14,774 nt of DNA, taken from a virus. Taxonomy: Duplodnaviria; Heunggongvirae; Uroviricota; Caudoviricetes. The stretch lies in IMG/VR virus record IMGVR_UViG_2698536395_000026; one strand, 5' to 3'. Under the pieces are notes generated by a model. It was not told the origin of the DNA, searched no databases, and saw nothing but the letters and a program-made list of their open reading frames with translations. Both the position numbers and the translations under genes were made by a program. This document shows positions 4,740-5,127 of this stretch, piece by piece (position 1 is the stretch's first letter; each line of letters opens with the position of its first letter).

Positions 4740-4860
4740 TTCATTGCTCCAGAAGAATGATATGATGCAACCATGATGTGATTGCATACCGAAATGGTAC
4801 TATTGAGTATTTATCCAGTAGGTTACGATGCCATTCCACCCAACTGGTGAGGCATCAAGG
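4740..4860. promoter_or_regulatory. Divergent control region between tailspike and mnt (candidate promoters and operator)
   Basis: 121-bp gap between divergently oriented genes. Plus strand has an extended -10-like TGgTACTAT (4795-4803) and TTGCAT (4782-4787). An imperfect dyad CCACCCAACTGGTG (4837-4850) lies just upstream of the mnt ATG. In P22 this position holds Pant/Pmnt and the Mnt operator. No clean palindrome matching a known operator was found. Confidence 0.3.
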
Positions 4861-5127
4861 ATGTACAGCAAATACGACGAGGCGCAGTTTCACTTGAGAC
4901 TTCCGCATGAACTCCACGCGAAAATTAAACAGCGCGCGAAGATGAATAACAGGTCGCTGAACTCAGAGATAATTGCAGCGATTGAAGAATCGTTGGCTAA
5001 ACAAAGCTCTGCATCCGTTTACATTGATGATGCAGAGCGTATGGCAGAACAACAATCTGATATGGTTAAGAAAATGGTTTTTGAAACGCTTAAGACCATG
5101 TATAGCAATAATAAAAAGGAAACATAG
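4861..5127 (+). CDS. mnt: Mnt-type ribbon-helix-helix repressor
   Basis: 88 aa from the ATG at 4861. The sequence ...AQFHLRLPHELHAKIKQRAKMNNRSLNSEIIAAIEESLAK...DDAERMAEQQSDMVKKMVFETLKTMY aligns over its full length with P22 Mnt as remembered (RHH N-domain plus C-terminal tetramerisation helix). GGTGAGG lies 8 nt upstream. The upstream ATG at 4828 is rejected. Confidence 0.85.
   Translation: MYSKYDEAQFHLRLPHELHAKIKQRAKMNNRSLNSEIIAAIEESLAKQSSASVYIDDAERMAEQQSDMVKKMVFETLKTMYSNNKKET

What the first reader, a model, noticed from the sequence alone, without database searches (positions are those of the whole stretch)
4740..5127. Orphan Mnt repressor divergent from the tailspike with no arc/ant genes
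In P22 the immI region is mnt-arc-ant, with Mnt repressing the promoter that drives arc, ant and part of gene 9 expression. Here a full-length Mnt homolog is retained, but only 121 bp separate it from the tailspike start codon, leaving no room for arc or ant. Mnt may therefore directly repress tailspike transcription in the lysogen, or control the adjacent lipoprotein in an mnt-lipoprotein operon. I could not find a clean operator palindrome, which suggests a diverged operator.
Basis: partly seen in the sequence, partly recalled or inferred. Interest (0 to 1): 0.55.

Follow-up and report, generated by a model that had tools for sequence, protein, structure and literature searches.

The report
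Mnt-only moron beside the tailspike
A P22-like prophage of E. coli O26 keeps the Mnt repressor and a matching diverged operator right next to its tailspike gene but has no arc or ant; this layout is common and already described in phages L and ST64T, and what the lone repressor controls is still unknown.

Summary
A full-length Mnt homologue (4861-5127, 88 aa, both Mnt domains) lies 121 bp from the divergent tailspike start (4739). No Arc or Ant homologue exists anywhere in the about 40-kb prophage of E. coli O26:H11.

It is not an assembly artefact. The junction is in 223 of 5,426 complete E. coli genomes, in phages Sf101 and IME10, and at exactly 121 bp in most related IMG/VR loci.

The layout is not new. 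"mnt-only ant morons" were described for ST64T/ST104 (Villafane 2008) and phage L (Zaworski 2021), with function left open.

What I add:
- The gene is under purifying selection (pN/pS 0.15).
- An imperfect 17-bp palindrome, CATACCGAAATGGTACT (4785-4801), sits exactly where P22 Omnt sits, abutting the mnt -35. Its sequence class tracks the Mnt recognition-strand class (P22, L and window types). It is the only copy in the prophage.
- The obvious palindrome (4765-4787) is instead a conserved hairpin in the tailspike leader RNA.
- The strong P22 Pant is gone, so direct repression of a tailspike promoter is not supported by sequence.

Best reading: a functional Mnt-operator pair that controls its own promoter and probably limits transcription entering the tailspike gene.

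The parts
2616..4739 (-). Tailspike gene (P22 gene 9 homologue), 707 aa, true start ATG at 4739
   Evidence: Translation [11 protein letters not shown].... Pfam Head_binding 2e-67 plus beta-helix. RefSeq annotates it as 'phage tailspike protein'.
4747..4750 (-). Tailspike Shine-Dalgarno sequence GGAG, inside the conserved leader ...CUGGAGCAA..AUG
   Evidence: Read directly from the sequence. GGAG is invariant in the aligned leaders.
4765..4787 (-). Hairpin in the tailspike 5' leader RNA: AUGCAAUCA-CAUCA-UGGUUGCAU, at -48 to -26 from the AUG. This is the obvious palindrome of the spacer, and it is not the Mnt operator.
   Evidence: Inverted repeat I4. The sense-strand fold is -11.5 kcal/mol, z -3.46, against z -1.22 for the antisense strand. 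The same position holds a stem of different sequence in P22 (downstream of ant), L, JEP4-type and other loci. G.U wobbles pair only in the tailspike sense. It is replaced in the 132/135-bp variants while Mnt stays the same.
4785..4801 (.). Candidate Mnt operator, specificity class C: CATACCGAAATGGTACT (core TACC-N5-GGTA at 4787-4799, centre A4793)
   Evidence: It ends one base before the conserved TTG of the mnt -35, exactly as P22 Omnt AGGTCCACCGTGGACCT does. It is present in about 160 class C loci, with TACC/GGTA invariant and perfect palindromes in some (GTACCAAAATGGTAC in L092). It is the only copy in the prophage.
4803..4829 (+). Homologue of P22 Pmnt: -35 TTGAGT (4803-4808) and -10 TACGAT (4824-4829). 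The spacer is only 15 bp in this 121-bp variant.
   Evidence: Positional alignment to P22 TTGAGA-17-TATCAT. TTG and TAnGAT are conserved in all classes. The spacer is 17 bp in the 135-bp variants, L, Gally and P22.
4827..4856 (+). Inverted repeat in the mnt leader, GATGCC...GGCATC with an inner stem CACC/GGUG. It lies upstream of the SD GAGG (4848-4851).
   Evidence: The fold is -12.7 kcal/mol, z -2.5. It is highly conserved in class C and present in class B with a different inner stem (CACUU/AAGUG).
4861..5127 (+). mnt homologue, 88 aa, ribbon-helix-helix domain plus C-terminal tetramerisation helix
   Evidence: pN/pS is 0.15 in codons 1-52 over 102 distinct alleles.
5198..5683 (+). 161-aa predicted lipoprotein (lipobox LVGC, Cys15) of unknown function. 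It is a separate mosaic module of the moron.
   Evidence: Translation. PHROG 6067, function unknown, and no Pfam or NCBIfam match. It is present in Gally and VSe13 with other neighbours and absent from IME10 and Sf101.
5698..7545 (-). Gene 16-type ejection protein, the other boundary of the moron
   Evidence: Synteny with P22 genes 16, 20 and 7.

Best explanation
Window 4740-5683 is an 'mnt-only' version of the variable region ('ant moron') that P22-like phages carry between gene 16 and the tailspike gene.

Shown:
- It encodes an intact Mnt-family repressor under purifying selection.
- A cognate-looking, diverged 17-bp site (4785-4801) sits at the position of P22 Omnt.
- That site lies between the mnt promoter homologue and the tailspike leader hairpin.
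- It is the only such site in the prophage.

Inferred:
- In the lysogen, Mnt tetramers bind this single site.
- Binding sets mnt expression, and here possibly that of the downstream lipoprotein.
- Binding also keeps RNA polymerase from entering the tailspike gene from this junction. This would act on weak local initiation or on read-through coming antisense through mnt.
- In lytic growth, antiterminated late transcription from upstream supplies tailspike mRNA.

Arc, Ant, sar and the strong Pant of P22 are absent, so Mnt here is not an antirepressor controller.
For: - Domain architecture and homology.
- Selection: pN/pS is 0.15 in the DNA-binding domain across 102 alleles. Synonymous divergence reaches 0.74 between the window and JEP4 subtypes, yet residues 1-14 are invariant.
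- Operator: three Mnt recognition-strand classes each have their own palindrome at the identical position, just before ATTG.
  - Class A: PHFNFRMP with GGTCCACCGTGGACC.
  - Class B: PQFNLRLP with AGACCACNGTGGTCT.
  - Class C: AQFHLRL with TACCNAAANGGTA.
  - There is no cross-pairing in about 175 loci.
- A Citrobacter locus with a stop codon in mnt also has a mutated site.
- The spacer aligns to the P22 mnt-arc spacer on one side and to the last 35 bp before P22 gene 9 on the other.
- Classes B and C are always directly beside the tailspike, at 121-146 bp unless an HNH gene or IS is inserted.
- In Gally (class B, same lipoprotein), mnt, the tailspike and three neighbouring genes are induced 7-50-fold in macrophages while other late genes fall. 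This shows the junction is transcribed independently of the late operon (bioRxiv 10.1101/2022.10.28.514194).
- Villafane et al. already suggested that Mnt and Arc may influence transcription into the tailspike gene (PMC2629481).
Against: - No binding or expression data exist for this protein.
- No convincing sigma-70 promoter faces the tailspike. Candidates score 5.4-5.7 bits against 15.0 for P22 Pant, and they are not conserved.
- The Pmnt homologue has a 15-bp spacer in this variant, so even mnt's own promoter is uncertain.
- The window's copy of the site is only weakly symmetric: 8 of 17 positions, with a 4+4 core.
- The class-operator association amounts to only three independent lineages.
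- In Gally, mnt and the tailspike rise together, which is not what simple repression of the tailspike by Mnt predicts.
Confidence: 0.55

Rival explanations
1. Decaying relic. arc and ant were deleted, and mnt with its site is a non-functional remnant on its way out.
For: Zaworski et al. raise this possibility for phage L (PMC8022706). Pant and the Arc operator are degenerate. One locus (L095) has a stop codon in mnt.
Against: pN/pS is 0.15 over 102 alleles with near-saturated synonymous divergence. The site core is invariant in about 160 loci. Two separate orphan classes (B and C) each keep the same geometry. The junction is in 223 complete E. coli genomes.
Confidence: 0.07
2. Trans-acting protection. 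The resident Mnt represses Pant of superinfecting relatives that carry ant behind the same operator class, which protects the prophage repressor from foreign antirepressor.
For: In P22 lysogens Mnt does act in trans on incoming phage (established P22 biology, recalled rather than tested here). Antirepressor cross-talk between prophages is known (PMC7380047).
Against: Among about 160 class C and 9 class B loci, none has arc or ant next to the operator. The ant-like modules found lie on the far side of mnt with their own Arc-like pair. Complete immI regions seen here are all class A. A collection-wide pattern scan was uninformative because of chance matches.
Confidence: 0.1
3. Moron-operon regulator. 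Mnt's job is to autoregulate an mnt-lipoprotein transcript whose payload is the lipoprotein, for example a surface or exclusion factor.
For: The two genes share a strand, the gap is 70 bp, and no terminator is predicted between them. Most close relatives have the same pair. In P22, sieA sits in the equivalent region.
Against: IME10 and Sf101-type loci have the same Mnt and spacer with no lipoprotein. In Gally and VSe13 an opposite-strand gene lies between mnt and the lipoprotein gene. Upstream homology among the lipoprotein copies extends only about 45 nt, so it is a separate module. Phage L has a terminator right after mnt.
Confidence: 0.15
4. Assembly or rearrangement artefact that removed arc and ant from this contig.
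For: None found.
Against: The sequence is identical in dozens of independently finished genomes and in isolated phages. The spacer is exactly 121 bp in 70 of the 80 spacers measured (78 related IMG/VR loci, IME10 and the window).
Confidence: 0.01

Closest known systems
Phage L / ST64T / ST104 / SE1 'mnt-only ant moron' (Villafane et al. 2008, PMC2629481; Zaworski et al. 2021, PMC8022706)
   Same: It lies between gene 16 and the tailspike. mnt diverges from the tailspike across a 135-bp spacer with no arc, ant or sar, plus one small accessory gene. A palindrome abuts the mnt -35. The same tailspike leader hairpin is present. Function is unknown.
   Different: The Mnt specificity class differs: class B (PQFNLRLP with AAGACCACGGTGGTCTT) against class C here (AQFHLRLP with CATACCGAAATGGTACT). 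Amino-acid identity is 48-58%. The spacer is 121 bp rather than 135 bp, with a 15-bp promoter spacer. The accessory gene is a lipoprotein rather than orf62 or orf59a. The host is E. coli rather than Salmonella.
Phages Sf101 and IME10 (Shigella/E. coli Lederbergvirus)
   Same: They carry class C Mnt at 90% amino-acid identity. The 121-bp spacer is near-identical, with one substitution in the hairpin stem in IME10. The tailspike head-binding domain is the same.
   Different: There is no lipoprotein, so mnt is followed directly by the ejection-protein gene. The last about 10 residues of Mnt differ. The gene is unannotated in IME10 and called 'partition protein ATPase' in Sf101.
P22 immI region (mnt-Omnt/Pant/Pmnt/Oarc-arc-sar-ant)
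   Same: The Mnt fold and tetramerisation domain are shared. The operator is centred about 45 bp upstream of the mnt start site and abuts the -35. The genomic location is the same. Spacer homology exists on both flanks.
   Different: arc, ant, sar, the Arc operator and the strong Pant are absent. The operator sequence and recognition residues differ (H6Q, N8H). The target of repression is therefore not an antirepressor.

Membership tests
Mnt repressor family (P22 Mnt type) | N-terminal Arc-like ribbon-helix-helix DNA-binding domain | tested here: met
   PF03869 at 8.4e-15. PDB 1mnt at 5.7e-19 over residues 6-78.
Mnt repressor family (P22 Mnt type) | C-terminal helix that forms the tetramer (Repressor_Mnt domain) | tested here: met
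   PF11423 at 4e-12. PDB 1qey at 1.2e-6, residues 56-83.
Mnt repressor family (P22 Mnt type) | Cognate 17-bp symmetric operator next to its own promoter | tested here: inconclusive
   A conserved site lies at the homologous position and co-varies with the recognition-strand class. However, the window copy is only partly symmetric and binding is untested.
Mnt repressor family (P22 Mnt type) | Sequence-specific DNA binding and repression | not testable with these tools
   This needs EMSA or footprinting and reporter assays.
P22-type immunity I region (immI) | arc gene divergent from mnt | tested here: not met
   There is no Arc hit at E<=1 in the window or the rest of the prophage. The 121-bp spacer holds no ORF.
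P22-type immunity I region (immI) | Antirepressor gene ant downstream of arc, with sar antisense RNA | tested here: not met
   There is no Ant hit, and there is no room between 4740 and 4860.
P22-type immunity I region (immI) | Strong Pant overlapping Omnt and Pmnt | tested here: not met
   The scan recovers P22 Pant (11/12) and Pmnt (10/12) but nothing at the homologous place in the window, L, Gally or VSe13. PWM scores are 5.4-5.7 against 15.0 bits.
'ant moron', mnt-only type (Villafane 2008) | Non-morphogenetic genes between the gene 16 and gene 9 homologues, transcribed against the late operon | tested here: met
   The gene order is gp16 (5698-7545, minus), lipoprotein and mnt (plus), tailspike (minus).
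'ant moron', mnt-only type (Villafane 2008) | mnt present, arc and ant absent | tested here: met
   The layout matches L, SE1, Gally, VSe13, Sf101 and IME10.

The most novel reading that the evidence does not exclude
Class B and class C Mnt proteins are dedicated gatekeepers of the last late gene. A tetramer bound 45-60 bp upstream of the tailspike start blocks polymerase entering the tailspike gene. The three operator classes would then behave like immunity groups. A resident prophage's Mnt would also shut off tailspike synthesis of a superinfecting phage of the same class, which would yield tail-less, non-infectious progeny. That would be a form of exclusion acting on virion completion.
Probability: 0.12. 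Interest if true: 0.55.

Novelty: new member of a known kind. Interest (0 to 1): 0.28.

Why it matters
The layout itself is ordinary. About 4% of complete E. coli genomes carry this junction, and the literature already notes lone mnt genes next to tailspikes.

The useful outcome is a sharper question. The lone Mnt is not junk: it is under strong purifying selection. It also comes with a predicted single binding site that can be tested directly.

If Mnt proves to control transcription into the tailspike gene, or to control moron genes expressed in the lysogen, that would explain why this small repressor persists in two specificity classes long after the antirepressor it controls in P22 is absent.

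It would also bear on prophage gene expression in pathogenic E. coli, both O26 STEC and the Gally prophage of LF82 in macrophages.

Tried and rejected
- Consensus promoter scan of 4600-5800 gave only two weak plus-strand matches, no more than shuffles give. Neither is conserved in the 135-bp variants, so I do not rely on CTGACA-17-AATGAT.
- PWM promoter scan on 13 spacers found no conserved tailspike-sense promoter. An alternative mnt-sense promoter with the operator in its spacer (TTGATA-17-TATTGT in L092 and L174) is not present in the window.
- I first took the 23-nt palindrome 4765-4787 for the operator. I rejected this because it is replaced in the 132/135-bp variants while Mnt is unchanged. 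It also exists downstream of ant in P22, and it pairs only in the tailspike-sense RNA.
- RNAalifold on mixed hairpin classes failed because MAFFT could not align the different stems. Within one class the formal covariation is modest, mostly G-C to G.U shifts.
- A search for a second operator in the prophage found none. The 1-mismatch hit at 6406-6418 inside gene 16 is within chance expectation.
It is uninformative for the trans-immunity idea.
- The larger gaps between mnt and the tailspike in some loci were checked for arc or ant. They hold HNH endonuclease genes, an IS element or an ant fragment instead.
- Knight and Sauer 1989 (PMC286564) is not held. The roles of Mnt residues 2, 6, 8 and 10 therefore rest on my own knowledge and on the secondary statement in PMC3413123.

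Full report
**Where the window comes from.** The window is 100% identical to a prophage of E. coli O26:H11 strain 11368 and many other O26 genomes. The prophage is integrated next to a tRNA-Arg gene, downstream of yfdC.

In window coordinates the gene order is:
- integrase (1-1158, plus);
- acyltransferase (1403-2545, minus);
- tailspike (2616-4739, minus);
- Mnt-like gene (4861-5127, plus);
- a lipoprotein gene (5198-5683, plus);
- homologues of P22 genes 16, 20, 7 and 14, the Sf6-type needle, 10, 4 and the coat protein, all on the minus strand.

The rest of the prophage looks complete. It is a P22-like (Lederbergvirus-type) prophage.

**Checking the observation.**
- The tailspike begins at the ATG at 4739 (MSDITANVV...; Head_binding domain 2e-67).
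- The Mnt homologue begins at 4861, not at the upstream ATG at 4828. RefSeq and the alignment with P22 Mnt agree on this.
- The protein has both Mnt domains: Arc-like RHH at 8.4e-15 and Repressor_Mnt at 4e-12. It matches the solved P22 Mnt N-terminal domain (1mnt, 5.7e-19) and tetramerisation domain (1qey, 1.2e-6).
- It is 47% identical to P22 Mnt.
- tblastn with P22 Arc and Ant finds nothing at E<=1 in the window or in the other 32 kb of the prophage.

**Not an artefact.**
- The 4400-5700 stretch is >=99% identical in 67 records of complete E. coli genomes.
- The junction 4700-5100 is present at >=80% coverage in 223 of 5,426 complete genomes.
- Phages IME10 and Sf101 carry it at 94-97% DNA identity.
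- Of 80 spacers measured (78 of the closest IMG/VR relatives of this Mnt, plus IME10 and the window), 70 put the tailspike start exactly 121 bp upstream, and none of the loci has Arc or Ant.
- The exceptions are 132/135-bp spacer variants, HNH homing-endonuclease genes inserted at the tailspike start, and one IS element.

**Already described.**
- Villafane et al. 2008 named the region between gene 16 and the tailspike the "ant moron". They found ten types in sixteen genomes. [quoted passage not shown]
- Zaworski et al. [quoted passage not shown]
- I confirmed the same architecture in L (135-bp spacer), SE1 (135 bp), VSe13 (135 bp) and Gally (146 bp).
- The layout is therefore a known kind. The function of the lone Mnt is an acknowledged open point.

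**The gene is not decaying.**
- Across 102 distinct nucleotide alleles of this Mnt type, from 158 loci, pN/pS is 0.15 in the DNA-binding domain and 0.24 over codons 1-75.
- Between the window and the JEP4 subtype, synonymous divergence is 0.74 against 0.13 non-synonymous.
- The first 14 residues are identical in nearly all loci.

**A diverged operator exists.**
- In P22, the 17-bp Omnt (AGGTCCACCGTGGACCT) ends one base before the TTGAGA -35 of Pmnt.
- At the same place the window has CATACCGAAATGGTACT (4785-4801), followed by ATTGAGT.
- Variants make the symmetry clearer. They include TACCAAAATGGTA, TACCGAAACGGTA and, in a Buttiauxella prophage, GTACCAAAATGGTAC.

Three classes emerge:

| Class | Example phages | Recognition strand | Site |
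|---|---|---|---|
| A | P22, epsilon34, a Pluralibacter prophage, CUS-3 second copy (site not checked) | PHFNFRMP | GGTCCACCGTGGACC |
| B | L, SE1, Gally | PQFNLRLP | AGACCACNGTGGTCT |
| C | window, IME10, Sf101, JEP4, VSe13, others | AQFHLRL | TACC-N5-GGTA |

- Protein class and site class never mix in about 175 loci. This corresponds to only three independent lineages.
- The class differences fall on the beta-strand positions equivalent to P22 His6 and Asn8. From my own knowledge of the Sauer laboratory's work, these contact operator bases. PMC3413123 states that exchanging Arc and Mnt ribbon residues changes specificity.
- The class C site occurs once in the whole prophage.
- A Citrobacter locus whose mnt has an early stop codon also has a mutated site.

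**Anatomy of the 121 bp.**
- The mnt-proximal part aligns with the P22 mnt-arc spacer.
- The last 35 bp before the tailspike ATG align with the last 35 bp before P22 gene 9.
- The spacer therefore reads as the P22 arrangement with everything between Omnt and the tailspike leader missing.
- The obvious palindrome, 4765-4787, belongs to the tailspike leader.
  - It folds only in the tailspike-sense RNA: z -3.46 against -1.22.
  - It occupies -48 to -26 from the AUG.
  - It is matched at the same position by stems of at least nine different sequences in other P22-like genomes, including P22 itself, with G.U pairs that would be mismatches on the other strand.
  - Within the largest class, 7 of 8 pairs stay paired, through G-C to G.U shifts.
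  - Its function is unknown.

**Promoters.**
- The scan tool recovers P22 Pant (11/12) and Pmnt (10/12). It finds nothing at the homologous places in the window, L, Gally or VSe13.
- With a simple position weight matrix, P22 Pant scores 15.0 bits and Pmnt 11.5 bits.
- The Pmnt homologues of L, SE1, Gally and the JEP4 type score 5.9-7.4 bits. The operator is centred at -45 in L, SE1 and the JEP4 type, as in P22.
- In the window variant the hexamers TTGAGT and TACGAT are only 15 bp apart.
- The best tailspike-sense candidates score 5.4-5.7 bits and are not conserved.
- Sequence therefore does not support a Pant-like promoter driving the tailspike, and the mnt promoter itself is uncertain in this variant.
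- Independent evidence that the junction is transcriptionally autonomous comes from the Gally prophage of E. coli LF82. Gally has class B Mnt and a lipoprotein 97% identical to the window's. Its mnt, tailspike and three neighbouring genes rise 7-50-fold in macrophages while other late genes fall (bioRxiv 10.1101/2022.10.28.514194).

**Interpretation.**
- Shown: there is an intact, selected Mnt and a conserved, class-specific, single site at the Omnt position. Arc, Ant and strong Pant are absent.
- Inferred: Mnt binds that site in the lysogen.
  - The most likely output is control of its own transcript.
  - In this window that transcript may extend into the lipoprotein gene. The gap is 70 bp and no terminator is predicted.
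  - A further likely output is restriction of transcription entering the tailspike gene. All tailspike-directed transcription must cross the site.
  - I give this combined reading about 0.55. The tailspike-gating half alone gets roughly 0.35.
- The relic hypothesis is unlikely, given the selection and the two stable orphan classes.
- Trans-protection against foreign antirepressors is not supported. No class B or C site was found in front of an ant gene. Where ant-like genes occur in JEP4-type loci, they lie on the other side of mnt with their own Arc-like pair.
- The lipoprotein-operon idea cannot be the conserved role. IME10 and Sf101 lack the lipoprotein, and Gally and VSe13 separate it from mnt with an opposite-strand gene.

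**Verdict.** The finding is real, common and already known as a layout. It is a new (class C, E. coli) member of the 'mnt-only ant moron' kind. The added value is a concrete operator prediction and evidence that the lone Mnt is functional. Interest is modest.

Noticed in passing
window 4765-4787 (minus strand); P22 locus L086 about 5161-5177: A conserved stem-loop sits in the tailspike 5' leader, 26-48 nt upstream of the AUG. It is present in nearly all P22-like genomes examined, with at least nine different stem sequences. G.U pairs work only in the tailspike-sense RNA. Function is unknown; possibilities are mRNA stabilisation, processing or pausing.
   Followed up: partly
L029, L037, L045, L060, L093, L123, L130, L136 (between mnt and the tailspike start): ORFs of 179-180 aa encoding HNH (some HNH-AP2) homing endonucleases are inserted at the very start of the tailspike gene. 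They leave a remnant of the old start (MSDIT...) and a new tailspike N-terminus. L093 and L136 are inferred from the same gap length and were not inspected. L047 has an IS3-family element at the same spot.
   Followed up: partly
RefSeq phage records NC_002371 (P22 mnt), NC_027398 (Sf101), NC_004348 (ST64T), NC_011976 (epsilon34); PHROG 795 and 2685: Mnt and its homologues are annotated 'partition protein ATPase' in RefSeq phage records and in PHROGs. This is a propagated mis-annotation of a ribbon-helix-helix repressor. IME10 leaves the gene unannotated.
   Followed up: no
window 4827-4856 (plus strand): The mnt leader contains the inverted repeat GATGCC...GGCATC, just before the ribosome-binding site. 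It is almost invariant in class C. Class B has it too, with a different inner stem (CACC/GGUG against CACUU/AAGUG). It could be an RNA structure or a second protein site.
   Followed up: partly
window 5006-5038 and 5111-5133 (read on the minus strand): Two terminator-like hairpins face the late-operon direction. One is a perfect 10-bp stem inside mnt followed by UUUGUUU. The other is GGAAAC/GUUUCC at the mnt 3' end followed by UUUUUAUUAUU. They could stop non-antiterminated transcription before the tailspike.
   Followed up: partly
window 4803-4829: The Pmnt-homologous hexamers are 15 bp apart in the common 121-bp spacer variant. They are 17 bp apart in the 135-bp variants, L, Gally and P22. 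The difference is a 2-bp deletion (GGTTTTACGAT to GGTTACGAT).
   Followed up: partly
window 5198-5683: This 161-aa predicted lipoprotein (lipobox LVGC) has no known function (PHROG 6067). It moves as its own module among P22-like morons (window, Gally, VSe13) and sits where P22 has sieA. It is a candidate lysogen-expressed surface or exclusion factor.
   Followed up: partly
L088 (JEP4) 2770-5234; L146, L126, L129 and others at about 4100-5460: Many JEP4-type loci carry a second regulatory module between gene 16 and mnt. It has a divergent pair of Arc-like genes plus Ant, Rha or KilA-type genes, and in L146 a full Ant 85% identical to P22 Ant. The module is separate from the Mnt-operator-tailspike junction.
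   Followed up: no
L095 (Citrobacter sp.) 3001-3234 and upstream: The class C mnt has a stop codon after codon 4, and its site has a G-to-A change in the GGTA core (TACCGAAATAGTA). This looks like a true decaying copy, for contrast.
   Followed up: no
L211, L218, L256, L272: Unrelated viral contigs carry a repeated element of about 60 bp (..CTATGGCTGTATATACATACCGAAACGGTACACAACA..AAGGAAACAGCCATG) in front of two consecutive genes 515 bp apart. It looks like a phage-specific promoter or regulatory repeat. It matched my operator pattern by chance.
   Followed up: no
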